DNA of 64,000 nucleotides from a virus (IMGVR_UViG_3300036790_000270:32001-96000), one strand, 5' to 3'; numbered from the stretch's first letter, positions 11,341 through 63,645 are shown. The notes: generated by a model not told the origin, from the letters alone. Numbers and translations: made by a program.

Positions 11341-11394
11341 TGCGGTCCCGGCGTGCATCCTTTGGGTTACGTCCGTGGGGTGGCCGGGACCGCA
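11341..11394 (-). ncRNA. solo TIGR-like unit closed by a perfect 12-bp stem
   Basis: On +: tgcggtcccggc-g-tgcatcctt-tgggttacg-tccgtgggg-tg-gccgggaccgca. Confidence 0.7.
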
Positions 11395-11442
11395 GCCTGT
11401 ACAGCACCGGGCTTCCGTGTTTTAGTCCCGTAAGGTGAGGTC

Positions 11443-12453
11443 ATGGCGCCGAAGGCTAAGGTCACCGCGGTCTCGTCGAAGACCACGTCCACGGCGGCCA
11501 GCGGGCTGCAGCTGTCGGCCGCGCAGTGGAAGGTGTACAGCTCTGTTTACACCGCTACCCAGCGCAGGCTGGCGATCGCCGCTGCCGCCAAGTCGCTGCG
11601 CAAGTCCCGGCTGAGCGCCGCCTACGCGACGCAGAAGAAGGCCGCGGTGGCGCGCTCGGTTGCCTCGGCGGCGGCGATCGCCGCGAACGCGACCCGGGTG
11701 TCCTACCGGAACTCGGTGCTGGCGCACCAGAACACCGCGCTGAAGAACCGGGTGTACGCGGACATGGCGCAGCACATGACGATCGCCGGGCGCGCCCAGT
11801 ACATCGCCGGCGGCGAGAAGTCCTACGCGCAGGCCGCCGTCTTGCGGACGCTCACCACCGCGCAGGCCACCACCATCGAGGCGGCCACGTTCGCGAAGGC
11901 CGTCAAGACGGCGAAGGTAGCGGCCAGCGGCGCGAAGGTAACCGTGGCGGGCGCTGCGATAGCGAAGGCAGCCAAGGCCGCCGCGACCGCTGCCGCGAAA
12001 GCCTCCCCGGCCGGCCGTACCGCGCCCCGCCCCGCTCACCTGATGCTGCCGCTGTTCCGCGAGCCGTTCGGCGACCCCGAGGGCTACGACTGCGTCGCGG
12101 CGGCGATCGCCACCCACCTTGACTTCCGCACGGCCTACCGGATGACGCCGCAGGAGTACGGCACGCTGACCGCCCGGCTCGGGGACGGGCCGGCCCTGGA
12201 GGACGCGCTGAATGTCGTAGCCGGGGACGGCCTCAGCGGCTCCTACCGCCTCAGCAGCTTCGGCCTGACGGAGCCGCGGGCGGGCACGCGCCTGGTCGCC
12301 GGCTTTGCCACGGCTAACGGGCCGCACGCTGCGCTGCTGCTGTCAGACCTGCTGGTCTTCAGCTGGGGTGAGGTGCTGAGGCTGCAGGACGTGATGCTCC
12401 CGGGAACCGCGATCGAGGAGGCCTGGGACCTGACCTGGGAGCCGCTAGGCTGA
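11443..12453 (+). CDS. Ala/Lys-rich protein with a possible C-terminal cysteine-peptidase-like domain
   Basis: Basic helical N-terminus. C-terminal YDCVAAAIA...GPHAALL...FSWG. Confidence 0.5.
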   Translation: MAPKAKVTAVSSKTTSTAASGLQLSAAQWKVYSSVYTATQRRLAIAAAAKSLRKSRLSAAYATQKKAAVARSVASAAAIAANATRVSYRNSVLAHQNTALKNRVYADMAQHMTIAGRAQYIAGGEKSYAQAAVLRTLTTAQATTIEAATFAKAVKTAKVAASGAKVTVAGAAIAKAAKAAATAAAKASPAGRTAPRPAHLMLPLFREPFGDPEGYDCVAAAIATHLDFRTAYRMTPQEYGTLTARLGDGPALEDALNVVAGDGLSGSYRLSSFGLTEPRAGTRLVAGFATANGPHAALLLSDLLVFSWGEVLRLQDVMLPGTAIEEAWDLTWEPLG

Positions 12454-12523
12454 GCTACATGGGAAGTTCCGGGAACAAGAAGCCATTCGACGCCGCTGCC
12501 GCCCGCGATCTCGACGAGACCCG

Positions 12524-12997
12524 GTGAACCTGACGGTTATCAGGGCCGCGCTCGCCGCGCAGGTCAACGCGGTAGCCTCGCCCGCGCTGCGCATGCTGCC
12601 CGAGCCCGAGGACCAGATCAACCCGCCCGTCGGGATCGTCATGCCGGGGCGCCCGTACGTTGACTACGCCACCACGCTGCAGGGCGAAACGGGGTTCGGG
12701 CCGGTTCTCGGCGGTACCGCGACCCCGCTGTCGGAGACGAACTTCAACCTGGACATCCTGGTCCTGATCTCGCACGCCTCCACCCTGGAGCGGATCGAGC
12801 AGAACCTGGACGCGTGGCTCGGCCTGGAGAACGACGGCACGGCCGTGTCAGTTGCCGCCGCGGTCTTGTCTGACATCACCCTCGGCGGTACCGTCCGCTG
12901 GTGCATCCCGACGACCGCTGACGCACCGGGTCCCCTTGCCTGGAGCGGCCCCGAGGCATTCGGCAGCCGCGTCCACCTGCAGTTGTCCGCCTTGTGA
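12524..12997 (+). CDS. tail terminator/completion-like protein
   Basis: Size and position before the tail tube gene; IRAALAA...PPVGIV...D.TLGGTV pattern. Confidence 0.6.
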   Translation: MNLTVIRAALAAQVNAVASPALRMLPEPEDQINPPVGIVMPGRPYVDYATTLQGETGFGPVLGGTATPLSETNFNLDILVLISHASTLERIEQNLDAWLGLENDGTAVSVAAAVLSDITLGGTVRWCIPTTADAPGPLAWSGPEAFGSRVHLQLSAL

Positions 12998-13290
12998 TGG
13001 CGCACGCTTACCTGTCGACCGCCTGCTATCACAGCAAGCACGGCGTCTTGTGCCGCCAGACGTGCAAGTACTGTGACGCGCCCTGCTCGTGCACCTGCCA
13101 CCGGGGCATTCTCCCGGTACCGTGGGTCGATCAGGCGCGAGCCGTTGCTGCGGAGCTGTTCAGCGCGATTTACCCGGCTGACGTGCCCGATGCCCTAGCG
13201 CAGCGAATCGAGACTGACCCGGCCTTGTTCTGGCTGCGCGGCGAGATAGCACCGGACGGGCAATGGCACGAACCTGGGGACGAGGGTTAG
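12997..13290 (+). CDS. Cys/His-rich hypothetical protein
   Basis: YLSTACYH..H..CRQTCKYCDAPCSCTCH. Confidence 0.55.
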   Translation: MAHAYLSTACYHSKHGVLCRQTCKYCDAPCSCTCHRGILPVPWVDQARAVAAELFSAIYPADVPDALAQRIETDPALFWLRGEIAPDGQWHEPGDEG

Positions 13291-14363
13291 TGGCGCGCAT
13301 CCTGCTGGTGCAACCGGGCCCGGACTTCTCCGTTGCCGACGTTTACCGCGGCTGGCAGAAGGCGCTGACCGCGCTCGGTCACACGGTGATGGCGTACAAC
13401 ACCAGCGACCGGCTGACCTTCTACGGCCGCACCCGGATGCCCGAGCACGACAAGCCCGCCTGCGAGCACTGCGGTGAGGTGCCGACCAGGCAGGCGGTGC
13501 CCGACAGCAACGGCATCCTGGCCCTCGGCATGGACGGGCTGTACGCCACCCTCAACAAGTTCTGGCCGGACATCGTGTTCTTCATCTCGGGTTTCTACCT
13601 GACCCCGGCGATTCTCCAGTTCATCCGCACCCGGCGGCACAAGATCGTCTTCCTGCACACTGAGTCGCCGTACCAGGACGAGGAACAGCTGCAGCGCGGT
13701 GAGTTCGCGGACCTGAACCTGCTGAACGACCCCGCGAACATCAGCGCGTGGAAAGACCTGGACGTCCCCGTCGCGTACATGCCGCACGCCTACGACCCGG
13801 GCATTCACTACCCGGCCAGCCCGCGTAACTATGAGGCTGACTTCGCGTTCGTCGGCACCGGGTTCCGCTCGCGCCAGGAGTTCTTCCACCAGATGGACCT
13901 GGACGGGCTCAGCGTCGTCCTCGGCGGCAACTGGGCGAACACCGAGCCGGAGTACCGCCACCTGCTGAAGTACCTTGGCCACCCGCTGGAAGCCTGCGTC
14001 GGCAACGAGGAAACCGCCCGCGTCTACCGGCTCGCTAAGGCCGGCATCAACTTCTACCGGCGGGAATCAGAGGACGCGCACGCTGGCGAAGGCTGGGCGA
14101 TGGGGCCACGGGAAGTGGAGATGGCCGCCTGCGGCTTGTTCTTCCTGCGTGACCCGCGGCCGGAGTCCGACGAGGTTTTCGGCCGGTGCCTGCCCGCGTT
14201 CGGCTCAGCTGACGAGGCATCTCAGGAACTCCGTTACTGGACGGGTAACGACGCCCTGCGCGAGCGCTATGCGGCGCAGGCACGCGAGCGGATCGTAAGC
14301 CGCACGTTCAGCAACAATGCCAGGGCGGCACTCAACCTGATGGAAGAGGCGGGAATACTGTGA
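13290..14363 (+). CDS. GT-B glycosyltransferase (CgeB-like)
   Basis: GTG at 13290. Motifs TESPY, YMPHAYDP..H, DFAFVGT, KAGINF, R..EMAACG.F.L. Confidence 0.85.
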   Translation: MARILLVQPGPDFSVADVYRGWQKALTALGHTVMAYNTSDRLTFYGRTRMPEHDKPACEHCGEVPTRQAVPDSNGILALGMDGLYATLNKFWPDIVFFISGFYLTPAILQFIRTRRHKIVFLHTESPYQDEEQLQRGEFADLNLLNDPANISAWKDLDVPVAYMPHAYDPGIHYPASPRNYEADFAFVGTGFRSRQEFFHQMDLDGLSVVLGGNWANTEPEYRHLLKYLGHPLEACVGNEETARVYRLAKAGINFYRRESEDAHAGEGWAMGPREVEMAACGLFFLRDPRPESDEVFGRCLPAFGSADEASQELRYWTGNDALRERYAAQARERIVSRTFSNNARAALNLMEEAGIL

Positions 14364-14682
14364 GCGACAGCTGGATGTGCGGGTACCGGTGGCAGGACGG
14401 GGATAACACCGAGCTGCACGAGACGCATGTCTGCGGCCTGCTGACCAACGGCGGCCAGCACACGCACGACTGCATTGTCTCGGTGTGCCGGGGGACGCAG
14501 TGATCTGCCAGCCGTGCCGGGACAACGCCCACGACGTGTGCCCCGAAGTAGCGCGCCGGGAGCACCGGGCTGACCTGAACGCCATTGAGCTTAAGGGCGG
14601 CCCGTGGTGTGACTGCCAGCACAAGCCGCGGGCTGAAGTGCAGCGCCGCATGTAGCCCTATCCCGGCAGGCAGAGCGCCGCT

Positions 14683-14731
14683 TACACTAGATAAGTAGAG
14701 CCGAGGCCACGTGTTACCACGTCGGAGCCGG
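14683..14731 (+). promoter_or_regulatory. putative late promoter -10 plus leader RNA motif, copy 3
   Basis: TACACT (14683-14688), then CCG-A-GGCC-ACGTGTTACCACGTC-GGAGC-CGG. Confidence 0.55.
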
Positions 14732-14763
14732 ACCCGTTCCTTTTTTCGGAAAAGGGGTCTGAC

Positions 14764-15216
14764 GTGGGAAGAATCCACGGTCGCAACGGCATGGTCTATA
14801 TGGCCCTGCTCGCTCAGGGCACCGCGCAGCCACTCGCTTACGTCAGTGACTGGACCATGAACTTCACCGTGGCGAAGGTGGACGTCACTGCCCTCGGCGA
14901 CGCCAACCTCGTCTGGGTAGCCGGCCTGCCCGACGCCTCCGGTGACTTCACCGGTTTCTTCGACACGGCGACTTCGCAGACCTACCAGTCCGCGGTTGAC
15001 GGCCAGCCTCGTAACTTCTACCTGTACCCGACGCTCGTCGCGGTCAACGGCGGCCCCGGAAACGCGACCGTCAACGTCGGCCAGTACTTCTTCGGCACGA
15101 TCCTCCCCGACTTCAGTTCCGCTGGCGGAGTTGCCGCCGCGGTCACCATGAAGTCAACCTGGAACGCTGCCTCCCAGGTGCAGCGGTACCCGAGCACGGG
15201 CGTTCCCGGAACCTGA
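14764..15216 (+). CDS. major tail (tube) protein
   Basis: RIHGRNG, WTMNFTVAKVDVTALGD...VAGLPDASG. Located before the chaperone and tape measure genes. Confidence 0.75.
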   Translation: MGRIHGRNGMVYMALLAQGTAQPLAYVSDWTMNFTVAKVDVTALGDANLVWVAGLPDASGDFTGFFDTATSQTYQSAVDGQPRNFYLYPTLVAVNGGPGNATVNVGQYFFGTILPDFSSAGGVAAAVTMKSTWNAASQVQRYPSTGVPGT

Positions 15217-15228
15217 TCCTGACGTGGC

Positions 15229-15262
15229 GACGGCCCTTTCCCCGGACAGGAAAAGGGCCGTC
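15229..15262. terminator. strong hairpin after the tail tube gene (putative terminator/attenuator)
   Basis: GACGGCCCTTTC...GAAAAGGGCCGTC imperfect inverted repeat. No U-tract. Confidence 0.45.
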
Positions 15263-15263
15263 T

Positions 15264-15310
15264 CCGGATGGCGTTGGAACGCTGGGTTTCGTGTGCTCTT
15301 TGGCCTCCGG
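15264..15310 (-). ncRNA. solo TIGR-like unit
   Basis: On +: ccggatggc-g-ttggaacgc-tgggtttcg-tgtgctctt-tg-gcctccgg (bulged stem). Confidence 0.65.
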
Positions 15311-15325
15311 TGAAACTCACCCTAT

Positions 15326-15823
15326 ATGAGCGAACCGGAGAATTCAGTGCCCCCTCGCAAGACCCGTACCGTCGCGCCGCGCCCCGTTCAGGACGTCCCG
15401 CTGGAGGGCGAGGAGCCGGTCAAGGTGGACGGCCGGACCAGTGCCGCCCGGCAGGCCCGCCGCCTGCAGATGGCGACCGCGGAGGAAAAGGTGCGGCTGC
15501 CCGAGGAGGAGCGCGCCGTTGAGGTGACCGACGGGCAGCTGGTCGCGCCGATCAAGGAGAAGTACTTCCGGCTGCAGGAGTCCCTCGGCCTGATGCCGCT
15601 GATGGAGTGGGCGGCGGCGCAGGACGACCTGGACGCCGACAACCAGGTGCAGCTGGCCGGCCTGTTCCGGTTGCTGAAGGACCTGGTCGCGCCGGAGGAG
15701 TGGGCGGAGTTCCGCAGCTTCACCCGGGAAGCCAAGTGCATCGATGAGGACTTCATCGGCTTCGTCAACGCCGGGATGGAAGCGATGGCGGCCCGCCCTA
15801 CCGGGGAGCCCGCAGCCTCCTGA
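15326..15823 (+). CDS. tail assembly chaperone (G-like)
   Basis: Lies between the tail tube and tape measure genes. Acidic, ends ...ARPTGEPAAS. Confidence 0.7.
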   Translation: MSEPENSVPPRKTRTVAPRPVQDVPLEGEEPVKVDGRTSAARQARRLQMATAEEKVRLPEEERAVEVTDGQLVAPIKEKYFRLQESLGLMPLMEWAAAQDDLDADNQVQLAGLFRLLKDLVAPEEWAEFRSFTREAKCIDEDFIGFVNAGMEAMAARPTGEPAAS

Positions 15824-16272
15824 AGTGGCTGCTGGCGAACTTCGCCAAGGTAAACGGTGACTTCCTGCGCGCTCACGGGCACGGCGTCGAGATGCTGTCG
15901 GCCCGTGAGCTGTGCGACGTCGCCTACGCCGCGATCATCGCGGACATGGAGCGTCACCATTACGCCCTGGTGGCTGCCGGGGCGCAGTGGAAGGACAGCC
16001 GGGACCCGCTCGGGGACGACATCGCCCGGTTCGAGGAGCGCATCGGGCTGCGGGACAACCCGGAGGCCCTCGCCCTCGCCCTGCACAAGCAGTTCCTCGC
16101 CGACCAGGGCAAGGAATGGGATGACACGCCTGTCGGCGCCGGGAACGGCGAGTGGTGGGACCAGGACGCCGAGTTCACTGACATGCGTGACCTGGACGCC
16201 GAGGCGAAGCGGCGCGCTGCGGCAGCGAAGAACTACGGGCTGTTCGCCAAGGACCGGAAGGGTAAAAAGTAG
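15796..16272 (+). CDS. tail assembly chaperone second frame (GT-like, probably reached by a -1 frameshift)
   Basis: The frame of ORF 15892-16272 is open back to 15748 and is -1 relative to 15326-15823. It reads PYRGARSLLKWLL... across the first stop. The start shown is the inferred shift site. Confidence 0.55.
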   Translation, partial: PYRGARSLLKWLLANFAKVNGDFLRAHGHGVEMLSARELCDVAYAAIIADMERHHYALVAAGAQWKDSRDPLGDDIARFEERIGLRDNPEALALALHKQFLADQGKEWDDTPVGAGNGEWWDQDAEFTDMRDLDAEAKRRAAAAKNYGLFAKDRKGKK

Positions 16273-16274
16273 TC

Positions 16275-16673
16275 ATGGCAGAGGTGAACCTGGACGCGGT
16301 GGCGATGGACTGGCTGCTGAACGACCCGGCCGGGCCGGTCGGCGTGCTGATCGCGGACATGTCGGAGAAGGCAGCCGCGATTGCCCGGACCGCTGCACCC
16401 GTCATGGTGACCGGCTCGCGCTGGCCGCCGAGCAACTTCTCGCACTGGGGGAAGGCTTTCAACCCGCGCTTCCAGTACGGTGACACGGGCCCGGGTGACA
16501 CGCGGGCGAGTGTGCGGTGGTCCGGGTTCCTGTACAACGGTCTCGGCCAGATGTACTCCGGGGTGAACGTCAACTACGGGCCGACGCTGTACCTGCAGCA
16601 GGGCGGCGGCCGGCACGGGCACGCGATCCGGCACCCGTTCATGACCACGGCGCTGGATACGGTGCAGCTGTGA
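16275..16673 (+). CDS. neck protein (HK97 gp10-like)
   Basis: LLNDP.GPVG...ARTAAPV...HPFMTTAL pattern. Confidence 0.55.
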   Translation: MAEVNLDAVAMDWLLNDPAGPVGVLIADMSEKAAAIARTAAPVMVTGSRWPPSNFSHWGKAFNPRFQYGDTGPGDTRASVRWSGFLYNGLGQMYSGVNVNYGPTLYLQQGGGRHGHAIRHPFMTTALDTVQL

Positions 16674-16676
16674 GCA

Positions 16677-16724
16677 CTGCCGGGCGTAGGTCGTATGGGT
16701 TCCGTAACTGCATTGGCCCGGCAG
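16677..16724 (-). ncRNA. solo TIGR-like unit closed by a perfect 9-bp stem
   Basis: On +: ctgccgggc-g-taggtcgta-tgggttccg-taactgcat-tg-gcccggcag. Confidence 0.7.
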
Positions 16725-16749
16725 CTACGCAGTAGAGCGCCCGTCCCCG

Positions 16750-16792
16750 TAGGGTTATTCCGAATGCCGCGGCCTGAACTCCGGGAGCCGGC
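16750..16792 (+). promoter_or_regulatory. putative late promoter -10 plus leader RNA motif, copy 4
   Basis: TAGGGT (16750-16755), then GCCG-C-GGCC-TGAACTCCG-GGAGC-CGGC, ahead of the tape measure RBS (AGAGGAG). Confidence 0.6.
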
Positions 16793-16823
16793 CTGATCCC
16801 CGCTCCAGAGGAGATGGCGACCG

Positions 16824-22334: not shown

Positions 22335-22446
22335 CCGTCGCGGGCGCAGCTCCTGTGGGCCTCGTTACGAAGTTGGCCTGCGGCGGTCAGCTGCGAGCAC
22401 TGCGGGCGTTGGCTGACTGGGTTTCGTTTCGAGAGTGGCCCGCGGT
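22330..22446 (-). ncRNA. two hairpin-closed TIGR-like units
   Basis: On +: cagctcctg-tgggcctcg-ttacgaagt and ttggctgac-tgggtttcg-tttcgagag. Each lies between GGGCG and TGGCC and is enclosed by inverted repeats. Confidence 0.7.
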
Positions 22447-35996: not shown

Positions 35997-35999
35997 CGC

Positions 36000-36117
36000 G
36001 CCGGCGTCTGGGAGTTGGGTTTCGTAAACGACTTGGCCGGGCGTAGATTGATTGGGTCTCGCATGCGATATGGCCCCGGCGTAAGTAAGCTGGGTTTCGT
36101 GACCTGATTGGCCGGGA
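36000..36117 (-). repeat. TIGR-like mini-array, 3 units
   Basis: Spacer pairs on +: tctgggagt/taaacgact, tagattgat/catgcgata, taagtaagc/tgacctgat. Loops tgggt(t/c)tcg; edges tggcc..ggcg. Confidence 0.8.
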
Positions 36118-36124
36118 GCCCGGG

Positions 36125-36965: not shown

Positions 36966-37023
36966 CGCCCGCGCCCGGCGTTACATGTTTGGGCCCCGCA
37001 AGTGGAATGGCCGGGCGCGGGCG
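36966..37023 (-). ncRNA. solo TIGR-like unit closed by a perfect 14-bp stem
   Basis: On +: cgcccgcgcccggc-g-ttacatgtt-tgggccccg-caagtggaa-tg-gccgggcgcgggcg. Confidence 0.75.
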
Positions 37024-41968: not shown

Positions 41969-41974
41969 AGCCAG

Positions 41975-42017
41975 CGGGGCCACAGAAGCAACGAGACCCA
42001 CAGTGCTAGCGCCCCGG
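41975..42017 (+). ncRNA. solo TIGR-like unit (+ orientation)
   Basis: cggggcca-cagaagcaa-cgagaccca-cagtgctag-cgccccg. Confidence 0.7.
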
Positions 42018-42126
42018 TTAGGTATCGAACTGGTAACAGGAGCAGCAGGCAGCATCAGGAGCAATAGACTCGCTGCTTGTTGTCCCTGTTACCGGCCATG
42101 TCCCCTATCACAGGAGATCCTTATTC

Positions 42127-46568: not shown

Positions 46569-46580
46569 CCGTATTTTCAG

Positions 46581-46632
46581 GTTAGCGAGGCCAAATTGGT
46601 GACGAGACCCATCGACCACACGCTCTGCTAAC
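46581..46632 (+). ncRNA. solo TIGR-like unit (+ orientation)
   Basis: gttagcgaggcca-aattggtga-cgagaccca-tcgaccaca-cgctctgctaac, with outer stem gttagc/gctaac. Confidence 0.65.
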
Positions 46633-50955: not shown

Positions 50956-50962
50956 GACCCAG

Positions 50963-51016
50963 GGGGATGGGGGGCCAATCAGGTAACGGGGCCCGTATGC
51001 CGCACGCCCGGTCCCC
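50963..51016 (+). ncRNA. solo TIGR-like unit (+ orientation, divergent loop)
   Basis: ggggcca-atcaggtaa-cggggcccg-tatgccgca-cgcccggtcccc. Confidence 0.55.
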
Positions 51017-51574
51017 GGGGCGCCGTCAGCGTGCCCGTAAAATCAGAGCCAGCAGCCCGCGACTAAGGAGGACGGATGAGCAGCCGGGAACCCGATGACG
51101 ATGCGCGCGTGCCCTGGGATGACCTGCGCGTCCTTACCCTGGACGCACTGCACCGGTACGTGGCGGTCCTCGGCCTCAAGCCCGGTGACGTCCTTTACCC
51201 GGCGATCCTTGACCGGCTGGAGCGCGAGGACGAGCTGGCGCGAGATGCTGATGACGAGTAAGCGGCGCCGCAACAAGCACCGCACGCACACCTACCACAA
51301 GCCGCCCGCGCAGAACAACCGCAAGGTCCGCGGGCACCACCACTGCGCGCGGTGCGGCAAGTGGTGCTACGTCAGCCGGGCCGAGGCGGAGGCCGCCGTG
51401 CGCACCCTGCACCCGGGCGCCACCGTGCACTTCTACAAGTGCGGGGACTGGTGGCACTTCACCAGCATGACCGCCGAGCAGGTGGAGGGCATCCGGCAGC
51501 GCCAGGCGCAGGCCGCGGAAGACGAGGATGACTGGCCGGAACAAATGCCCGCGTGAGACGGTTGCACCAGGCAC

Positions 51575-51620
51575 GTCCCGGCCAACAAAAAAACGAGGCC
51601 CACAGCGGGAACGCCGGGGC
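51575..51620 (+). ncRNA. solo TIGR-like unit (+ orientation)
   Basis: gtcccggcca-acaaaaaaa-cgaggccca-cagcgggaa-cgccggggc. Confidence 0.7.
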
Positions 51621-51913
51621 ACCCGCCTACCCAAAGGAGAGCACCGTGAGTAACGACGAGAGAAGCTTCGCTAACGGCGGCGGCGCGATGACCGGCAACA
51701 CCGGCGCTATCGTATCCCTGCACCTGCGCCGCCTCTGGGAGTACGAGCAGGTACACGCGGCACAGCACAGCTTCTGGACCGTGCAGGCGTGAGCGGCCAC
51801 AGCTGCTCTTACACCGTGGAGATCGAGAGCTGGGAAGACAACGTGACCGGGGTCAAGTGGGTCCGGCTGCAGTGCTCGCATCCCGGTTGCGTTAATCAGA
51901 CGGTCGACCGGGC

Positions 51914-54231: not shown

Positions 54232-54514
54232 GGAGATCGAGCTGCGGGTGACCGTCGTCGTCAGTGAGGAAACGGACCTGCAGATCGTGCCGACGAGGGT
54301 GTGGCTCGCGCTGGACGACGCCTTTACCTTCGGCGTTAAGACCGTGGAGCTGGCCGATGCCGAGTGAGATCACGGTGAAAACAGCATTCGGCGAGTACAC
54401 GTTCCGTGAGTGCATCGCGTGCCGCCTCTGGAATCACTGGCACGATACCCTAGACGGTTCCTGCGAGGACCCGCGGTGCGAGTGCCCGTACCGGCCCGGA
54501 GAGGTGAGGTTCAC

Positions 54515-55015
54515 GTGATCGACAGCTGCGTCGGGTGCGACCCGGGCCCGGCCACCGGCCTGTGCTTCCTCGACTACCAGGACGGCAGGCTTGTCGGGCG
54601 CACCCTCCTCCAGGCGGAGGGCAGTACCGCGGTCATCGTGCTGCGCGGGCTGCTGCAGGCGTACTACAGCGATGGCGCCAGGCACTACAGGCGCGTCGGG
54701 TCGGTGGAGAAGTTCCTTACCGGAGCAGGCGCCGGGTCACGCGGGAAGAACGCTGACGTCACCCGGCAGCTGGTCTACGAGCTGGCCGAGGTACTGCAGC
54801 TGTTCGGCTACCAGGTAGCCATCCGGCCGGCCGCCGACGTCAAGCCGTGGGCGAGCAGCAAGCGCCTGGTGGCCGCGGGCATCGTCAGCTCGGAGAAAGG
54901 CATGCACGGCGACATGAACCACAGCTACGACGCGGCCCGGCACTGCCTGTACGGGGCGCACGAGGCCGGCGTCATCCGGGACCCGCTGATCCGGGGCGCC
55001 CGTGCCGAAGCATGA
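54515..55015 (+). CDS. RuvC/RNase H-fold nuclease (Holliday junction resolvase-like)
   Basis: VGCDPGPATG, VEKF, AADVK, H..DAARH. Confidence 0.7.
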   Translation: MIDSCVGCDPGPATGLCFLDYQDGRLVGRTLLQAEGSTAVIVLRGLLQAYYSDGARHYRRVGSVEKFLTGAGAGSRGKNADVTRQLVYELAEVLQLFGYQVAIRPAADVKPWASSKRLVAAGIVSSEKGMHGDMNHSYDAARHCLYGAHEAGVIRDPLIRGARAEA

Positions 55016-56080
55016 GGAACAGCGGCAGTGCAACGTGACCTGGGGGAGCTGCGACAAGCGCAGCCTGAGCGTGCCCGGGAAGAAGTCACTGCCGCACATC
55101 TGCAGCCTGTGGGGCGGGCACCGGGTACATATCTGCGACTACTGCCTGGTGCTGCAGCGGTAACAAGGGAAGAGGAACACGTGAGCGAGGAACAGTGCGC
55201 GCTGTGCGGCGGCTCCGGTCAGCGGGACTGCCCGTTCTGCAATAACTGCCCGTCCTGCAGTACAGCCTGCCGGGCGTGCAACTACACCGGCAAGGTATCG
55301 TGCCCGGACTGCAAGGGCCGGGGCTCCCGGTAACAAGGAGGACTAGAAGCTCATGACGGAAACCCCGTTCGGGCACCAGTGGGGGGCGTGGTCGGAGTGG
55401 GCGTACGCCTGCGGTGACCAGGACACCCGCCATCGCGCCTGCACCCGCTGCCCCGCGGTCGACCCCGGCTACCGGCGGCACGCGCACCAGTGGAAGGAGC
55501 ACCCCGACGTCTTCGCCCCGGTCGGTACCGGCGCCACCATCAGCGTGTGCAGCGCCTGCCGTACGGTGAAAGGCAGCTGATGGCCTTTCAGGTCCTCGTG
55601 AAAACTACCCCGGGGATGCTCGGCTCCTACTCCTACGACGTGGTCAGCCGGGAGGTCGCCGAGGTTTTCGTGCGCCGCTCCGACGTCTGGTGGTACGCGT
55701 TCCCCGTGGAAGACGAGACACTAGACGGCAGCAGCTGGAAGAAAGGCGGCGCGTGGGCTCAGCCGCCCGAGGCCGGCAACGACGTCGCCGCGGCGGTCCC
55801 GCTGGAAGCGTACGGGAACCGGGTTAGTGACGGGCTCGACCGTGAACGTCCCGCTGTACCGCGGGGGAGCCAGGTCGTAACAGAGGAAAACGAGGACGAC
55901 GAGGATGACGGCCGATGGGGCTAGCTGGTGCGCCCGCTGCCAGCACATGATCCGGGTGGCCGACGGCATCTGGGTGCACGTCAGCAGCGACGACTGGGCG
56001 GCCGGGGACTGCTACTGCACCTCGCAGCTGGCCCGCTGCGTGCCCGCGGTCAAGTTCCGCCGGGCTCGTATACTCCGGGA

Positions 56081-58116: not shown

Positions 58117-58175
58117 GACCTGCTCCCTCCCGGAAATTGGTGGGCCCCCGCCCATGCCCAGGACGGGGGCCCGAT

Positions 58176-58246
58176 GACATCGGGGGACTTGAACCCCCAA
58201 CTTCAGTCTCCTAATGACTGCGCGCTACCAATTGCGCCAGGTGTCT
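58176..58246 (-). tRNA. atypical tRNA, anticodon UAG (Leu), short variable loop, weak acceptor stem
   Basis: On -: AGACACC TG GCGC AATTGGTA GCGC G CAGTC ATTAGGA GACTG AAGTT GGGGG TTCAAGT CCCCC GATGTC. No encoded CCA. Confidence 0.7.
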
Positions 58247-58290
58247 GTTTGGTGCCCTCAGTGTCGTTAAGGAACGGCAGGTCTTGCGAC

Positions 58291-58364
58291 GGGTAACGCT
58301 CTGCCGGCTGAGCTAGGGGACCATGCGGAGGTCCCCCGGGGGGTCGAACCCCGGACCTTTACCC
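58291..58364 (-). ncRNA. circularly permuted tRNA mimic (YrlA/Y-RNA-like module)
   Basis: On -: GGGTAA AGGTC CGGGG TTCGACC CCCCG GGGGACC TCCGCAT GGTCCCC TA GCTC AGCCGGCA GAGC G TTACCC. This gives T arm, loop-closed acceptor stem and D arm inside a GGGTAA/TTACCC stem. Confidence 0.75.
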
Positions 58365-58386
58365 TGGTACTACCGTCCTCGCGGGG

Positions 58387-58471
58387 AGGACCTAACGGCT
58401 AACGGCGCGAAGGACAAGGAGCGAACGGCTAAGCAGTCCGGCTCACGGCTAACGGCTAAGTGCTAGGTCCT
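58387..58471 (-). repeat. heptamer (TTAGCCG) repeats enclosed by an 8-bp stem
   Basis: AGGACCTA (58387-58394) and TAGGTCCT (58464-58471) enclose about 5 copies of ctaacgg-like heptamers. Confidence 0.65.
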
Positions 58472-58516
58472 TACGTGTAACAGCTTACACGGTCACCTGG
58501 TAAATGCAACCTGTAC

Positions 58517-58648
58517 GGCGGGCAAGGCGTCGCCAGTTTGGGTTTCGCCGTCGTCATGGCCTCACGCGCCGCACAAGCCGTTCCGCAGGCAGGGAGTAAG
58601 GCGTGTGGTTATTGGGTCTCGTCAGGTAGGTAGCCTCACGCCCCGCCT
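58517..58648 (-). ncRNA. two separate TIGR-like units
   Basis: On +: aggcg-tcgccagtt-tgggtttcg-ccgtcgtca-tggcct and aggcg-tgtggttat-tgggtctcg-tcaggtagg-tagcct. Confidence 0.65.
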
Positions 58649-59415: not shown

Positions 59416-59450
59416 CCTTGCTCTCCTTTATACGTTTACGTTTACACGAG

Positions 59451-59606
59451 ACCGGGCGTTACTACCTTGGGCCTCGTGTCTCGGGTGGCCCGGCGTCGTA
59501 CGTTTGGGTTACGTCTTGCTGGCCGGGGCGTTACTACCTTGGGCCTCGTGTCTGCGTTGGCCCCGGCGTTTGTGCTGTGGGCCTCGTCATGATGCTGGCC
59601 GGGACG
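59451..59606 (-). repeat. TIGR-like array, 4 units (one with a 6-nt spacer)
   Basis: Pairs on +: ttactacct/tgtctcggg, tcgtacgtt/tcttgc, ttactacct/tgtctgcgt, tttgtgctg/tcatgatgc. Confidence 0.8.
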
Positions 59607-59993: not shown

Positions 59994-60275
59994 TTACACG
60001 CTCTCGCCGGGCCGTGTCAGCGACTTAACCGAAGGCGCAGGCGATTTTGGTCTCGTGTCATCGTTGGCCTCCGTCTCGTCGCCGAGCACGCTGATTACCG
60101 CGTCCAGCACGTCGTCGGGCCGCTTCTCCGCGACCTTCAGCAGCACTGCCAGCAGCACCTCGCCGTCCGCGTCCAGCGCCAGGCGCCCGGATAGCAGCAG
60201 CCGGATCTTCTGCCGCACGTGCCGGTACGGTATTCCCTTGTCCGGGTCCGGCGCCCCGGCGTAACCACGTGGCAT
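59994..60275 (-). CDS. hypothetical protein
   Basis: ORF track; AAGGA upstream. The 3' end overlaps a degenerate TIGR-like unit at 60030-60073. Confidence 0.5.
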   Translation of the reverse strand: MPRGYAGAPDPDKGIPYRHVRQKIRLLLSGRLALDADGEVLLAVLLKVAEKRPDDVLDAVISVLGDETEANDDTRPKSPAPSVKSLTRPGESV

Positions 60276-60285: not shown

Positions 60286-61242
60286 TTACCGGCGGGCCTG
60301 CTCCAGCGCCTGGTGCGCCTTAGACAGGGCCAGCAGGTTGCCGTCCTTGCCGGGCAGCGGCAGGAAGTCCGGCACCGAGCTGGCCGCGAAGTACTTCAGG
60401 CCGGTCCGCGGGCGCACGTCGAAGTTCGGGTTCACCCGGGCGTAGTTCTCATTGCGGGCGTGCTTGTTCCACGCGGTGGTGAACGCGTACAGCTCCATCA
60501 GCCGCTTGTCGGCTGGCAGCCGGTCCCGGACCGTGCCGAGCAGCAGCCAGTTGTGCAGGGTAAGCGCCGGGTTGCCCCGGTCCAGGTTGGCGCCGGTGCG
60601 CACCGACTCCCAGAAGCCGTCCGGGTCAATCTTGGTGACCGTGCCGTCCTCGTCGCGCTCCGCCGTCCGCATGATCGCGTACCCGGCGACCGACGGGTTG
60701 GCCCGCACCGCCCGGTACAGCGCCTCGCCCCGGTGGATCGCGTCGGTGATTCCCGGTGCGTCCACCCACGCGTCCTGTGACGCCCGGGTCAGCGCCTGCT
60801 TGCCGGGGTTACGCACCCCGTCGATGCCGTAGTTCTCGTACAGCGCCATGTACTTGGCGAGCACCGAGGCCCGCTTGTAATCGGGTATCGCCAGCATCCG
60901 CAGGGTGTCCGCGTAGGTGCGCTTGCGGCCCGTGTCGATGTACTCGGCCTCCTCTGTGGTGATGCCCCGGATGAACGGCAGGTACGTGGCGATGCCGGTC
61001 CGGATGATCGCCGCGAAGCGGTGCTGGCCGTCCCAGGCCCGGTCCGCGTCGTCCAGGTAAACGGGGCTGATCCCCGGGAAGAACGTGCCCTCCCGCAGGT
61101 TCAGCTCCATCACCGCGGTATCCAGCTTCGACTGGCTGCGGTTGGCGTGCATCGTCTTCAGGTACCGCTCGGCGTCCTTCGGCGTCACCAGCGTCATCTC
61201 AAAGGTGACGTGCGCCGGGAACGGGACTTCGGTACTGGTCAC
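60286..61242 (-). CDS. ParB/Srx-fold DGQHR-motif protein
   Basis: GTG at 61242 after AGGAGG. VTP..AE.YL...NR...DGQHRFAAI...IDTGRKRT..D.L. Confidence 0.8.
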   Translation of the reverse strand: MTSTEVPFPAHVTFEMTLVTPKDAERYLKTMHANRSQSKLDTAVMELNLREGTFFPGISPVYLDDADRAWDGQHRFAAIIRTGIATYLPFIRGITTEEAEYIDTGRKRTYADTLRMLAIPDYKRASVLAKYMALYENYGIDGVRNPGKQALTRASQDAWVDAPGITDAIHRGEALYRAVRANPSVAGYAIMRTAERDEDGTVTKIDPDGFWESVRTGANLDRGNPALTLHNWLLLGTVRDRLPADKRLMELYAFTTAWNKHARNENYARVNPNFDVRPRTGLKYFAASSVPDFLPLPGKDGNLLALSKAHQALEQARR

Positions 61243-61341
61243 GCGGTCCTCCTGAAAAGGGGATAGCAGAAGTTGTGTCATGGCTGCTCGGAACAAGCTG
61301 GCTGCGGTATCTATTCCGCGTCAGGGCCACCGCCCTCGCGA

Positions 61342-61594
61342 GCCCCGCAGGCGTCACGGGAATGGGTTTCGTGTCGACTTTGGCCTGCCAGGGGCCGGCG
61401 TTCTACCTGTGGGTTCCGTCCTCGGTTTGGCCGGGCGTTACTTGTTTGGGTCTCGTGAAGGCGTTGGCCCGGCGTGGTTCAGGCGGGTTCCGTGCTCGGT
61501 TTGGCCTGGCGCTGTGCCGCTGGGTTCCGTGAAGTAGTTGGCCGGGCCCGGCGTAACATCATTGGGTTCCGCCTCACTTTTGGCCGGGCCCGCG
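61342..61594 (-). repeat. TIGR-like array, 6 units
   Basis: Six tgggt(t/c)(c/t)cg-type loops, each flanked by two 9-nt spacers and tggcc..ggcg edges. Confidence 0.85.
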
Positions 61595-61600: not shown

Positions 61601-61741
61601 TTACTGCATCGCCCCGCAGCCGTTAGCCAGGCAGATATGGCGCCCGTCGTGGTTAACGTCGTCCCCGCACCGGTGCAGGCTGCCCGGGTGGGCCGGCTCC
61701 TTCAGCGTCCCCCAGCTGTGCCCGCATGCTCTTACTGCCAT
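61601..61741 (-). CDS. tiny Cys/His-rich peptide (46 aa) between two arrays
   Basis: GGAGAAGGAG RBS; MAVRACGHSWGTLKEPAHPGSLHRCGDDVNHDGRHICLANGCGAMQ. Confidence 0.6.
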   Translation of the reverse strand: MAVRACGHSWGTLKEPAHPGSLHRCGDDVNHDGRHICLANGCGAMQ

Positions 61742-61760
61742 CAGCTTCTCCTTCTCCGGG

Positions 61761-62088
61761 TGCCCGGCGTTTGCCTTTTGGGTCTCGTAGGCCGTATGGC
61801 CGGGCCCGGCGTGGCGACATTGGGTCCCGTCAAGCTTGATGGCCGGGCCCGGCGTTTGTGGACTGGGTCTCGTGAGGACTATGGCCGGGCGTGATGGATT
61901 TGGGTCTCGTGTCTCAGATGGCCCGGCGTTGTCCTGTTGGGTTCCGTGTCGACTTTGGCCGGGCGTTACTGTCGTGGGTTCCGTTGCTCGGTTGGCCCGG
62001 CGTGCATCCAATGGGTTCCGTGAACTTGATGGCCGGGCAGCACGGCGGCGGCGTTCCAGGAATGGGTTCCGTTACTACACTGGCCGCC
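61761..62088 (-). repeat. TIGR-like array, 8 units, directly downstream of the Tas-like gene
   Basis: Eight loop repeats with 9-nt (one 10-nt) spacer pairs. Edges tggccgggcg, tggcccggcg or tggccgggcccggcg. Confidence 0.9.
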
Positions 62089-62094
62089 TGCCCG

Positions 62095-62982
62095 CTACCG
62101 GCCGCGGTGCCGTCCCCGGTTCTCCTCCCCCACCCGGACCGTCCCGTACACCGGCGCGTCCCCGGCTGCCGTCAGCCACAGGTCCCGCAGGATCTCCTTA
62201 CCGGTGTGCCGCAGCCCGATCGCGTGCACGTGCGACTTCTGGTACGGGTCCCCGGCCAGGGCGTAACCGAGCTTCACCTTGCCGCCGGCCGCGTCATCCG
62301 GGGTTGCCAGCGGGTCAGTGTCATCAGGGACGTGCGTCTTGCACTTGACGTACAGCTTCCCGCTGTACCCGCCCACGCAGTCCCGGGTGTGCACCCGCCC
62401 GCTGTAGGCTGCCTTCACGTCGTCGTAGACCTTCCGGTACCCGGTACCCGCCTTCGCGGTGCTCTTCACCTGCGCGACCGACATCAGGTAGACCAGCTTC
62501 TTCGCGTCGGGGCGCCCGTTGGCCATCAGCGCGTCCGCGTCGCCCTTCACGTTCCGGTTCTTCGGCGCGCCCACTGAGCAGTATTGCCACAGCTCGCCCA
62601 CCCCCCGCGGGTGCTCCTCGTCGTCGATCAGGTGCCGCCCCGGGCCCTCGCCCTCCCAGTGCCGCGGGGAGGCCGTCCGCGGGTCACCGGTGATGCCCAG
62701 CAGCCGGGCCAGGGTATGCTCGCCGATCCCCGCGCTCTCCTGCTGCCAGCGCTGCACGCTTTCCGGCACCGTCATCCGGTAGCAGGCCGTCAGCTCCGCC
62801 TCCAGCCGCTTCTCCGCCTCCTTGTACAGCTCCAGCACCGGGCCGAGCGCGTCCAGCGTCACCGTCCCCGACCGCTTGGTGTTCTCGAACGCGATCCGGG
62901 CGGCCTGCGCGTCCGCGAACTCCTCCGCCCACATCCGCAGCTCGGTGTACGAGCCCGGGTTGGTGCGCCTGACATTCGTCAT
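62095..62982 (-). CDS. tasA: TasA-like IS110/Nop-domain RNA-binding protein without nuclease domain
   Basis: N-terminal coiled coil (D.Q..RIAFEN), GIGEHTLARLLG, LWQYCSVG, YRKVYD..K, H..GLR..GKEILRDLW. No RuvC (DEDD) or HNH region. Flanked by dual-spacer arrays. AAGGAG RBS. Confidence 0.8.
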   Translation of the reverse strand: MTNVRRTNPGSYTELRMWAEEFADAQAARIAFENTKRSGTVTLDALGPVLELYKEAEKRLEAELTACYRMTVPESVQRWQQESAGIGEHTLARLLGITGDPRTASPRHWEGEGPGRHLIDDEEHPRGVGELWQYCSVGAPKNRNVKGDADALMANGRPDAKKLVYLMSVAQVKSTAKAGTGYRKVYDDVKAAYSGRVHTRDCVGGYSGKLYVKCKTHVPDDTDPLATPDDAAGGKVKLGYALAGDPYQKSHVHAIGLRHTGKEILRDLWLTAAGDAPVYGTVRVGEENRGRHRGR

Positions 62983-63000
62983 TTCCTTTTCTCCTTGCGA

Positions 63001-63645
63001 TGGCCGGCGTATTGTGTACGGGTTCCGTCGTGTGCATGGCCGCCGGGGCGTTAACAGGGTGGGTTCCGTGAGGCAGTTGGCCCGGCGTTGTTCTCTTGGG
63101 TTCCGTTGCTCGATTTGGCCGGGCCTGGCGTTAGCTAGTTGGGTTCCGTGAGGCAGTTGGCCGGGCGTTAACGTGGTGGGTTCCGTGACTCGGTTGGCCG
63201 GGCGTTACTGCCCTGGGTTCCGTGTGCCTGTTGGCCCGGCGTCGTGATTTTTGGGTTCCGTACCTGAAGTGGCCGGGCGTCATGTTTTTGGGTTCCGTGG
63301 AAGCGGTGGCCCGGCGTCATGGCATTGGGCCTCGTTACGGTGGTGGCCGGGCGTGCAGTCATTGGGTTTCGTTACTCAGTTGGCCCGGCGTGCGTCCAAT
63401 GGGCTCCGTTGGAGTGGTGGCCGGGCGTTCAGCCATTGGGTCTCGTTAACTCAGTTGGCCCGGCGTGACCAGTATGGGTTCCGTTACGTAGCTGGCCGGG
63501 CGATACCTGATTGGGTTCCGCGGGAGTGGTGGCCCGGCGTGGGTCGCATGGGTTCCGTAACGGGTTTGGCCGGGCGTAACACCGATGGGTCTCGTTGCGT
63601 GGTTGGCCTGGCGCCCGGACACCGGGTTCCGTCATGCGGCCGGCC
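63001..63645 (-). repeat. TIGR-like array, 17 units of about 37 nt, directly upstream of the Tas-like gene
   Basis: On +: (tggccgggcg or tggcccggcg)-N9-tgggttccg-N9. 34 spacers, of which 31 are 9 nt and 3 are 10 nt. Confidence 0.93.

What the first reader, a model, noticed from the sequence alone, without database searches (positions are those of the whole stretch)
11341..63645. Guide units are dispersed across the window as single hairpin-closed cassettes
Seen: the same N9-loop-N9 unit occurs far from the Tas-like gene, nearly always in intergenic gaps. Loci: 11341, 15264, 16677, 22330 (x2), 36000 (x3), 36966, 41975, 46581, 50963, 51575, 58517 (x2), 59451 (x4), 60030. With the three main arrays this gives about 51 units at 16 loci by my manual count. 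Most solo copies have their own locus-specific closing stem (perfect 12 bp at 11341, 9 bp at 16677, 14 bp at 36966), so the stem is conserved as structure rather than sequence. Inference: either a distributed guide repertoire cut out of many mRNAs, cis-acting Tas-binding sites that regulate neighbouring genes, or a self-spreading REP-like element. I do not know of this dispersed layout being described for TIGR systems.
Basis: partly seen in the sequence, partly recalled or inferred. Interest (0 to 1): 0.9.

Follow-up and report, generated by a model that had tools for sequence, protein, structure and literature searches.

The report
Scattered single TIGR guide-RNA units in phage
A soil phage keeps many of the short two-part guide RNAs of its TIGR-Tas system as single hairpin-closed units wedged between unrelated genes up to 50 kb from the Tas gene, rather than only in arrays beside it, a layout that the published descriptions I could read do not mention.

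Summary
A relaxed scan and a covariance model bring this to 51 units at 16 loci: 31 in three arrays around a 295-aa gene, and 20 as singletons or mini-arrays at 13 loci up to 50.7 kb away.

The 295-aa protein is a nuclease-less Tas (TasA) by profile and fold. It sits with a weakly ParB-like gene.

Each unit reads GCCA-9 nt-CG-N4-CCA-9 nt-CGC, closed by a locus-specific stem supported by covariation. Non-array spacers have the same low GC as array spacers, 51% against 62.5% intergenic.

In the whole 117-kb record, 20 of 24 loci are co-oriented with their upstream gene, laid out stop codon, unit, next ribosome-binding site. Four loci are antisense in the late operon.

Two relatives at about 70-80% identity share the scattered layout, with some sites filled, empty or decayed.

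No RNA data and no targets were found. Best reading: self-contained stem-loop tigRNA genes embedded in phage operons. This is a new variant of a known kind. This scan has noted the same layout in other phages (unchecked notes).

The parts
11344..11391 (-). Solo unit (core 11351-11384). It has one departure from the motif in the loop and a 12-bp closing stem. It is antisense to both flanking + strand genes.
   Evidence: E 4e-5, not in the training set; z -4.3
15264..15311 (-). Solo unit, antisense in the late operon. The closing stem is interrupted (CCGG/CCGG with a bulge). A decayed copy lies at the same site in relative G002.
16677..16724 (-). Solo unit 10 nt after the stop codon of a + strand gene and 106 nt before the 1836-aa gene, antisense. 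The positional ortholog in G002 (36258-36291) is filled.
22337..22446 (-). Two units after the 1836-aa tape-measure-like gene, antisense. The site is filled, in the same orientation, in G001 (42731) and G002 (41425, 41816).
35997..36119 (-). Three-unit mini-array downstream of - strand gene 36125-36283, at a convergent gene junction.
36971..37018 (-). Solo unit with a 14-bp stem between two - strand genes (stop codon, 23 nt, unit, ribosome-binding site).
41972..42019 (+). Solo unit 10 nt after the stop codon of + gene 40697-41968.
46583..46630 (+). Solo unit 21 nt after the stop codon of + gene 45750-46568. The stem is interrupted and extended.
   Evidence: z -2.9
50967..51014 (+). Solo unit 18 nt after the helicase-like gene 49129-50955. 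No unit at this site in G001 or G002.
51574..51621 (+). Solo unit 24 nt after + gene 51095-51556, followed by a ribosome-binding site and start codon.
58520..58641 (-). Two units downstream of the DUF7873 gene and upstream (on the - strand) of a conserved non-coding stretch and tRNA-Leu. G001 has one unit here; the site is empty in G002.
59449..59606 (-). Four-unit mini-array (one unit degenerate, 59493-59528) upstream of the DUF7873 gene. Two of the units share spacer B.
60028..60075 (-). Degenerate unit (2 departures from the motif) inside the 3' part of ORF 59994-60275.
   Evidence: (E 7e-3)
61344..61591 (-). Tandem array of 6 units.
61760..62091 (-). Tandem array of 8 units immediately downstream of tasA.
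63000..63652 (-). Tandem array of 17 units (the last one degenerate) immediately upstream of tasA. The linkers alternate CCG/CGG, so each unit can close on itself.
62095..62982 (-). tasA: a 295-aa Nop-fold Tas protein with no nuclease domain.
60286..61296 (-). ParB/Srx-like gene with an invariant D-G-Q-H-R motif, in the same operon (candidate TasParB).
   Evidence: weak fold matches only

Best explanation
The dispersed cassettes are genuine guide-RNA (tigRNA) genes of this phage's TIGR-TasA system, of the self-contained stem-loop kind.

Anatomy of a unit:
- Box C is CCA and box D is CG, at both the edge and the loop.
- There are two 9-nt spacers and a 9-nt loop.
- The unit is closed by a helix: three invariant pairs plus locus-specific pairs made from its own flanks.

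Because a unit needs neither a neighbouring repeat nor a Tas-borne cleavage loop, it can work as a singleton anywhere in a transcript.

Most units sit between the stop codon of one gene and the ribosome-binding site of the next. They would therefore be transcribed inside the phage's polycistronic mRNAs, bound by a TasA dimer, trimmed out by host RNases, and used like array-derived guides to bind an 18-bp DNA site. With no nuclease, the likely effect is to block transcription or to recruit the ParB-like partner.

Shown here: the anatomy, structure, placement, composition and conservation of the units, and the identity of TasA. Inferred only: transcription, processing, loading on TasA, and DNA targeting.
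For: - Motif density: 46 hits against 0.37 expected; 58 against 2 or fewer in reversed-sequence controls.
- Invariant columns GGCCA / CG / CCC / CGC across 42 aligned units, solos and array units alike.
- This matches the published rule that edge and loop both start with box D and end with box C (CCA) and covary (Faure 2025, section read).
- Closing helix: covariation score 0.239 against 0.069 in shuffles (0 of 500 reach it) and 0.101 or less when the partner is slid. Pair 6-43 reads CG 17, GC 15, AU 2, other 8.
- Non-array units have a mean of 4.7 contiguous flank pairs against 1.8 with mismatched flanks. 19 of 29 have 4 or more, against 12.7% of the controls.
- 13 of 13 folded solos have the closing stem in their minimum-free-energy structure; 9 of 13 have z at or below -2.2.
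- Spacer GC is 50.6% in 29 non-array units and 51.6% in 31 array units, against 62.5% in other intergenic DNA. None of 2000 resamples fell below 53.4%.
- Four identical 9-nt spacers are shared between units against 0.23 expected, one of them between an array unit and a solo.
- 20 of 24 loci are co-oriented with the upstream gene, tightly packed between stop codon and ribosome-binding site.
- TasA identity: the family profile hits TasR 9mty (E 4e-13) and TasH (E 1e-9). The model (pLDDT 83.6) matches TasH and TasR best (E 4e-7 to 7e-6).
- The family has no conserved C-terminal Y/H tail, as published for stem-loop-binding Tas.
- Relatives G001 and G002 carry the same scattered layout: 32 and 11 perfect-motif units against 0 in controls.
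- Units occur at the same sites in relatives.
- Published work shows stem-loop tigRNAs expressed and processed from positions upstream of, downstream of and inside tas, and TasA acting as an RNA-guided repressor (Xu 2026, sections read).
Against: - No expression data of any kind.
- Four loci (5 units) are antisense to the late operon, so they would not be made from the mRNAs around them. The promoter scan found nothing there.
- No 18-bp target was found in either strand geometry, with gaps of 0-8, in the phage itself, in two sister phages, or in the phage's 13-copy palindrome.
- Only about half of the mappable sites are filled in each relative (4 of 7 in G001; 3 of 7 plus one decayed in G002). 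Single units are therefore dispensable.
- Some copies are degenerate (59493, 60035).
- Spacers of positional orthologs are nearly randomised: 30 of 81 positions identical, against 60% in the flanks. This fits either fast guide turnover or irrelevance of the spacer sequence.
- The 59 of 60 identity of box positions in orthologs is partly built in, because orthologs were found by that motif.
- The CUU processing motif reported for stem-loop tigRNAs is seen after only 3 of 29 non-array units (listing).
- The gene calls are my own GC3 heuristic.
Confidence: 0.6

Rival explanations
1. The solo units are cis-acting RNA elements rather than guides. TasA (perhaps with the ParB-like protein) binds the boxes in nascent polycistronic mRNA and thereby marks processing sites, protects 3' ends, or tunes expression of the flanking genes. 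The spacer sequence does not matter.
For: - Placement exactly between stop codon and ribosome-binding site at many loci.
- Spacers at orthologous sites are almost randomised while the boxes persist.
- No targets found.
- Units lie next to tRNA genes, which are themselves processing sites.
Against: - Spacer composition is constrained exactly as in the arrays, 51% GC against 62.5% background, which a sequence-irrelevant filler would not need.
- The 5 antisense units would not display the boxes in the mRNA.
- This role is not exclusive of guide function.
Confidence: 0.15
2. The solo units are relics or selfish copies. On this reading TIGR units get inserted into, or duplicated at, intergenic hairpins and then decay, like REP or MITE-type repeats, with no benefit to the phage at most sites.
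For: - Presence/absence differences between relatives, and a decayed copy at the 15271 site in G002.
- Degenerate copies at 59493 and 60035.
- One clean filled/empty pair, outside the window. The empty genome keeps only the sequence that forms the 3' arm, and CCGGG stands at both junctions.
- TasA is related to the RNA-binding domain of IS110 recombinases.
Against: - Copies share no variable sequence beyond 4 half-spacers, so they are not recent copies of a master element.
- No terminal inverted repeats or regular target duplications were seen in the alignments.
- TasA has no recombinase catalytic domain: 295 aa, and the fold covers only the Nop part.
- Sites are shared, in the same orientation, across three phages at about 75% identity.
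- Low-GC spacer composition is maintained.
- Contigs of a near-identical strain from another soil run show no insertion or loss at 5 of 6 loci covered.
Confidence: 0.15
3. The units act at the DNA level, for example as loading or nucleation sites for the ParB-like protein (a parS-like set). On this reading orientation relative to transcription is irrelevant.
For: - A ParB/Srx-like gene sits in the tas operon.
- Five units are antisense yet some are conserved.
- The sites are spread over 71 kb.
Against: - Only about 13 conserved bases, split into four blocks around variable sequence, which is unlike known ParB sites (established knowledge of palindromic parS, recalled).
- Compensatory changes in the closing stem point to a folded single strand.
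- 20 of 24 loci follow the direction of transcription.
- The ParB assignment itself is weak: no fold match at E 0.001 or better.
Confidence: 0.05

Closest known systems
Stem-loop TIGR arrays with TasA (PlTasA locus from a Peromyscus gut contig; BlTasA and CsTasR loci). Sources: Faure et al. 2025, PMC12045711 (sections read); Xu et al. 2026, bioRxiv 10.64898/2026.09.09.750476 (sections read).
   Same: [quoted passage not shown]
- A variable but always palindromic flank closes each unit.
- The loop is mostly 9 nt.
- The Tas protein has no nuclease and no conserved Y/H tail.
- Units lie upstream of, downstream of and even inside genes.
- Sub-arrays are separated by non-array DNA.
   Different: - Published units lie at or within the tas locus, with sub-arrays about 450 nt apart. 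Here 13 window loci lie 2.5 to 50.7 kb away, between unrelated genes.
- Box D is CG, not UG.
- In the tandem arrays neighbouring units share a 3-nt linker that alternates between two complementary forms.
- The CUU motif at the stem base is not general (3 of 29 non-array units).
TasParB-TasA operons with dual-repeat arrays (Faure et al. 2025, methods section read; fig. S14 not seen).
   Same: tasA sits in an operon with a ParB-like gene. Arrays lie upstream, downstream and between the two genes. Repeats are about 10 nt.
   Different: The ParB assignment here rests on a DGQHR motif and weak fold matches. The published text does not mention units elsewhere in the genome.
Mycobacterium phage Omega gp21 ('transposase', 31% identical to this TasA) with flanking stem-loop units.
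   Same: An actinophage of similar size (110.9 kb). Its units read CCA-N9-CG-ACA-CCCA-N9-CG with their own closing stems. The covariance model built here detects four of them.
   Different: In Omega 8 of 11 pattern hits lie within 2.3 kb around gp21/gp22, and the other three look like chance. The layout is clustered, not scattered.
Box C/D snoRNA and sRNA genes.
   Same: [quoted passage not shown]
   Different: There are no k-turn box sequences (RUGAUGA/CUGA) in these units, by inspection. The published target of Tas is DNA, not RNA. No methyltransferase is present.
REP/BIME-type intergenic hairpin repeats of bacteria (recalled, not searched).
   Same: Short structured repeats found in gaps after stop codons, in both orientations.
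   Different: REP copies share their sequence. Here only the boxes are shared and the two 9-nt segments differ in every copy.
Phage-borne CRISPR mini-arrays and solitary repeat units (recalled, not searched).
   Same: Guide-system repeats carried by a phage away from any full array.
   Different: A different guide family. Here the partner protein is encoded by the same phage.

Membership tests
TIGR-Tas system (Faure et al. 2025) | A Tas protein with a Nop-type RNA-binding fold. | tested here: met
   The profile of 30 homologs hits TasR 9mty (E 4.3e-13) and TasH 21kl (E 1.2e-9). The AF2 model (pLDDT 83.6) matches TasH and TasR best (E 4e-7 to 7e-6, TM 0.53-0.69), then IS110-type recombinases. 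Pfam gave nothing.
TIGR-Tas system (Faure et al. 2025) | Units with two spacers of about 9 nt. Edge and loop both begin with box D and end with box C (CCA), and the motifs covary between edge and loop. | tested here: met
   Invariant GGCCA, CG, CCC(A) and CGC in 42 aligned units. Box D is CG at both edge and loop. The rule was read.
TIGR-Tas system (Faure et al. 2025) | Units stand in tandem arrays next to tas. | tested here: not met
   Met for 31 units in three arrays. Not met for 20 window units at 13 loci lying 2.5-50.7 kb from tasA. This is the point of the finding.
TIGR-Tas system (Faure et al. 2025) | Units are transcribed and processed into short tigRNAs bound by Tas. | not testable with these tools
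   Needs small-RNA sequencing or TasA pull-down from infected cells.
TIGR-Tas system (Faure et al. 2025) | The spacers jointly specify an 18-bp DNA target, one spacer per strand. | tested here: inconclusive
   No site with 2 or fewer mismatches in the phage itself. Hits at 3 mismatches are at control level. Nothing credible in two sister phages. The host genome is unknown.
Stem-loop TIGR architecture (Faure 2025 Fig. 7; Xu 2026) | Variable palindromic flanks close each unit. | tested here: met
Stem-loop TIGR architecture (Faure 2025 Fig. 7; Xu 2026) | The Tas protein lacks the conserved C-terminal Y/H processing loop. | tested here: met
   Many of the 30 homologs end right after the last helix. 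In the close clade the tail varies, with Y replaced by F in two sequences. The criterion was read. No structure-based alignment to TasH was made.
Stem-loop TIGR architecture (Faure 2025 Fig. 7; Xu 2026) | A conserved CUU at the base of the stem. | tested here: not met
   CTT directly follows the unit at 3 of 29 non-array units: 58527, 58601, 60035 (listing).
Dual-repeat TIGR architecture | One conserved edge repeat shared by neighbouring units. | tested here: inconclusive
   In the arrays the edge is conserved except for a 3-nt linker that alternates CCG/CGG. The solo units have no shared edge beyond GGCCA and CGCC.
TasParB-TasA subtype | A ParB-like gene in an operon with tasA. | tested here: inconclusive
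   Adjacent and co-oriented. The DGQHR motif is invariant in 22 homologs. The best fold matches are ParB-N, Noc, PadC and sulfiredoxin, but at E 0.01-0.1. Pfam and PDB sequence searches were negative.
REP/MITE-like mobile repeat | Copies share sequence over their whole length and show terminal repeats or target duplications. | tested here: not met
   The variable 9-mers differ in all copies except 4 identical pairs. No regular duplications appear in the filled/empty alignments.
Any Rfam family | A match at the family's gathering score. | tested here: not met
   The only hit in the window is tRNA at 58174-58246.

The most novel reading that the evidence does not exclude
In this phage lineage tigRNAs are organised like snoRNAs. 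They are single, hairpin-closed guide genes embedded in many operons. Cutting them out both releases a guide and cleaves the polycistronic mRNA, so the guide pool changes with the early, middle and late transcription programme. The conserved antisense units in the late operon would then be separately expressed guides, active when the late genes are silent. The locus-specific stems, and the filled/empty pair in which the empty site keeps only the 3' arm, hint that new units arise by inverted copying of the local flank. That would be a first clue to how TIGR systems gain guides.
Probability: 0.2. Interest if true: 0.85.

Novelty: new variant of a known kind. Interest (0 to 1): 0.62.

Why it matters
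Published TIGR-Tas work describes guides as arrays at the tas locus and states the contrast outright: tigRNAs are clustered, snoRNAs are scattered (Faure 2025, discussion read). The published annotation tool looks for arrays surrounding tas loci (Xu 2026, section read).

Three consequences follow if single units 50 kb away are real guides:
- Repertoires are under-counted. Here 20 of 51 window units, and 29 of 60 in the record, lie outside the three arrays.
- Tas systems reported as lacking arrays may simply keep their guides elsewhere.
- The proposed evolutionary link between TIGR and box C/D snoRNAs gains an organisational intermediate.

The layout also gives testable handles on two open questions named in both papers. 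One is how guides are matured without a Tas-borne nuclease. The other is how new guides arise.

Tried and rejected
**Identity of the phage and its proteins**
- Megablast of 20 kb against the phage collection found no match.
- Pfam on TasA, the ParB-like protein and their neighbours gave nothing useful except DUF7873 and a glycosyltransferase.
- Single-sequence PDB searches with TasA and with the ParB-like protein gave nothing. The profile of the ParB-like family against PDB gave nothing either.

**Promoters, terminators, expression**
- Promoter and terminator scans around the loci stayed at shuffle level. They gave no promoter for the antisense units.
- A possible shared upstream motif (CCCTATA-like) occurs only 3 times and in both orientations, so I dropped it.
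- Sequencing runs: no RNA holder listed; three soil DNA runs hold the stretch.

**Filled versus empty sites**
- Contigs of the three DNA runs were laid on 35500-55499. Run X2 covers 5 of the 6 solo loci there without listed insertions or losses. The locus at 46590 is not covered by a listed piece, and the tables were truncated. No filled/empty polymorphism was seen.
- Alignments with G001 and G002 were mostly too diverged for clean junctions. One clean pair was found, outside the window.

**Targets**
- Contiguous A+rc(B) and rc(A)+B sites were sought in the phage's own record, in G001 and in G002. Sites with gaps of 0-8 were sought in the phage's own record. All results were at control level.
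The best match to the 13-copy palindrome is 7 of 9 positions of one half-site, so it is not reproduced.
- No spacers are shared between the three phages beyond chance.

**Other**
- Rfam has no family for the units.
- Tas relatives in bacterial genome assemblies are only distant (25-38% identity, Actinomycetota), so no host genome was available for a target search.
- Not used: complex prediction, the search of protein representatives, the protein-atlas search, and scans of metagenome contigs.

**Literature**
- 'dispersed', 'scattered', 'orphan' and similar words are absent from the main texts of Faure 2025, Xu 2026 and the Asymmetric-targeting preprint.
- Library searches for tigRNA + intergenic (2 papers, both read in part) and TIGR-Tas + dispersed (1 unrelated paper) found nothing relevant.
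- The yeast paper was only searched for spacer wording.
They may list unit coordinates that bear on the novelty claim.

Full report
**What is there**

The window is bases 32001-96000 of a 117,211-bp viral record, estimated 82% complete, with 67% GC.

Scoring 18 fixed or semi-fixed positions with up to 2 mismatches gives 58 units in the whole record, against 2 and 0 in the two reversed-sequence controls. With two degenerate array-end copies added, the inventory is 60 units at 24 loci in the record, of which 51 units at 16 loci are in the window.

A covariance model built from 42 units, run with filters off, finds every locus, including four copies it was not trained on. It finds nothing else convincing.

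Thirty-one window units form three tandem arrays of 6, 8 and 17 around a 295-aa gene.

**The unit**

Aligned without gaps, the units share invariant GGCCA, CG, CCC and CGC. Between these blocks are two 9-nt variable segments, whose ninth base is A in 100 of 114 cases, and a 9-nt loop CG-N4-CCA.

This is the published tigRNA plan: edge and loop each begin with box D and end with box C (CCA), and the two covary (Faure 2025, section read). Here box D is CG in both places.

The flanks pair. Three invariant pairs are extended by locus-specific pairs:
- The covariation score is 0.239 against 0.069 in shuffles (0 of 500 reach it) and 0.101 or less when the partner column is slid.
- The 29 non-array units have on average 4.7 contiguous flank pairs, against 1.8 when the flanks of different units are combined.
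- All 13 solos that I folded show the closing stem in their minimum-free-energy structure, and 9 have z at or below -2.2.
- In the arrays the 3-nt linker alternates CCG/CGG. Each unit can therefore close on itself, in competition with its neighbours.

**The proteins**

The 295-aa protein has no Pfam hit. A profile of 30 homologs matches TasR (9mty, E 4e-13) and TasH (E 1e-9). Its model (pLDDT 83.6) is closest to TasH and TasR, and next to IS110-type recombinases. It has no nuclease domain, so it is a TasA.

Its family has no conserved C-terminal tail. The absence of the Y/H processing loop is the published mark of Tas proteins that bind stem-loop guides (Xu 2026, section read).

The neighbouring 336-aa gene has an invariant DGQHR motif. 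Its fold matches, though consistent, are weak: ParB, Noc, PadC and sulfiredoxin at E 0.01-0.1. This fits the published TasParB-TasA operons but does not prove membership.

**Placement**

By my own GC3-based gene calls, 15 of 16 window loci are intergenic.

In the record, 20 of 24 loci have the orientation of the gene just upstream. By hand, the binomial chance of 20 or more out of 24 is about 8e-4, though neighbouring loci are not independent. The units are squeezed between that gene's stop codon (7-40 nt away) and the ribosome-binding site of the next gene. Many gaps leave no room for a separate promoter, so these units would be transcribed within polycistronic mRNAs.

Four loci (11351, 15271, 16684, 22344/22406) lie on the - strand inside the + strand structural operon. 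I found no promoter for them.

**Are the solos like the array guides?**

- Composition: their spacers have 50.6% GC and array spacers 51.6%, while other intergenic DNA has 62.5%. No resample of 2000 fell below 53.4%.
- Sharing: four 9-mers recur exactly between units against 0.23 expected, one of them between an array unit and a solo outside the window.
- A difference: the loop variants differ. Arrays mostly carry CGGAACCCA (17 of 31). Solos mostly carry three other forms (21 of 29). The solos are therefore not recent spill-over from the arrays.

**Relatives**

Two viral records, G001 (122 kb, complete) and G002 (84 kb, a fragment), are syntenic at 67-85% nucleotide identity. Their TasA is 68-70% identical.

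Both carry arrays at tas plus scattered units. There are 32 and 11 perfect-motif units respectively, against 0 in the reversed controls.

Site by site:
- The gap after the tape-measure-like gene is filled in all three phages, always antisense.
- The gap before that gene is filled in G000 and G002.
- The 58527 site is filled in G001 and empty in G002.
- The 11351 site is empty in G002. At the 50974 site neither relative has a unit.
- The 15271 site holds a decayed copy in G002.

At positional orthologs the box positions are 59 of 60 identical, but this is partly built in, since that motif is how I found them. Spacers are 30 of 81 identical, below the 60% of the 70-nt flanks. No spacer is shared between the phages beyond chance.

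Units are thus long-lived as sites, individually dispensable, and their spacers turn over fast.

One clean filled/empty pair lies outside the window. G002 has a unit with an 18-bp stem where G000 has only the sequence that forms the 3' arm, with CCGGG at both junctions. Either insertion with inverted copying of the flank or a microhomology deletion would explain it.

By contrast, Mycobacterium phage Omega has a gp21 that is 31% identical to this TasA and keeps its stem-loop units within 2.3 kb of that gene, 8 of 11 pattern hits. Scattering is therefore a trait of this lineage, not of all actinophage TIGR systems.

**Targets and expression**

From the published 8-nt 3' overhang I derive the target form 5'-A·rc(B)-3'. 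I tested that form and the alternative, contiguous in all three phages and with gaps of 0-8 in the phage's own record. No site with 2 or fewer mismatches was found in the phage's own record. Cross-phage hits at 2 or fewer mismatches come only from GC-rich doubtful units.

Here the 13-copy palindrome, which lies outside the window, is matched by no guide.

**Reading**

The units are TIGR guide genes of the stem-loop kind. Because each is self-contained, it can work as a singleton.

The most likely mechanism has four steps: co-transcription with the surrounding genes, binding by a TasA dimer, trimming by host RNases, and RNA-guided DNA binding. TasA has been shown to repress transcription in other systems (Xu 2026, discussion read). 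Every step after the anatomy is inferred.

The rivals remain open and are scored in their own section: pure cis-acting RNA elements, decaying or selfish copies, and DNA-level sites.

**Comparison with what is known**

The kind is known: TIGR-Tas, the stem-loop architecture, and the TasParB association.

What I did not find in print is guides scattered through the genome far from tas. Faure 2025 states that tigRNAs are clustered, in contrast to snoRNAs. Xu 2026 annotates arrays surrounding tas loci and reports positions upstream of, downstream of or inside tas. Word searches in three main texts and two library searches found nothing on scattered units. Supplements were closed.

This scan's own earlier, unchecked notes describe the same layout in several other phage genomes. 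I did not test those.

**Verdict**

This is a new variant of a known kind, of moderate to high interest to people working on TIGR-Tas. Its main weakness is the complete lack of expression and target evidence.

Noticed in passing
window 58173-58246 (-), and 58126-58482: There is a tRNA-Leu gene (ARAGORN and Rfam). The non-coding stretch just upstream of it on the - strand is the best conserved part of the genome against G001, at 86.6% identity. The two units at 58527/58601 lie directly upstream of this RNA cluster.
   Followed up: partly
G000 contig C1 1391-10668 and 108238-114319 (outside the window): Thirteen copies of a 20-bp palindrome (TTAGTGCCACGTGGCACTAA, up to 2 changes in the 14-bp core) occur mostly in gaps of the leftward accessory-gene block. 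None is in the window. No tigRNA spacer pair matches it.
   Followed up: yes
L012:2731-2873 (G001), L023:1425-1640 (G002), L013:16553-16670 (G001): In the relatives, units lie right beside tRNA genes. The antisense unit after the tape-measure-like gene is 36 nt from tRNA-Arg (+) in both relatives. In G001 a unit lies 12 nt upstream of tRNA-Thr (-).
   Followed up: partly
G000 C1 about 16480-16560, matching G002 about 3730-3810 (outside the window): A non-coding block of about 75 nt is almost identical between G000 and G002 and contains a T-arm-like GGTTCGA motif. It lies just before the filled/empty unit site and upstream of a 549-aa gene.
   Followed up: no
window 61601-61741 (-): A 46-aa ORF rich in Cys and His sits between two of the arrays, with its own ribosome-binding site. 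No family match.
   Followed up: no
window 16718-16823: The gap between the antisense unit and the start of the 1836-aa gene is more conserved between G000 and G002 than the neighbouring coding sequence. Its role is unknown.
   Followed up: no
window 33927-34577 (-): A family 2 glycosyltransferase gene (Pfam E 1e-13) lies on the opposite strand at the end of the structural block.
   Followed up: no
L017 (Mycobacterium phage Omega, record positions 14226-16559): Omega gp21, annotated 'transposase', is a Tas homolog flanked by at least 8 stem-loop TIGR units that the record does not annotate. About 83 other Mycobacterium phage records carry a homolog at about 30% identity, variously annotated as transposase, DNA-binding protein or hypothetical. 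One of them, Barriga, had no unit of this pattern.
   Followed up: partly
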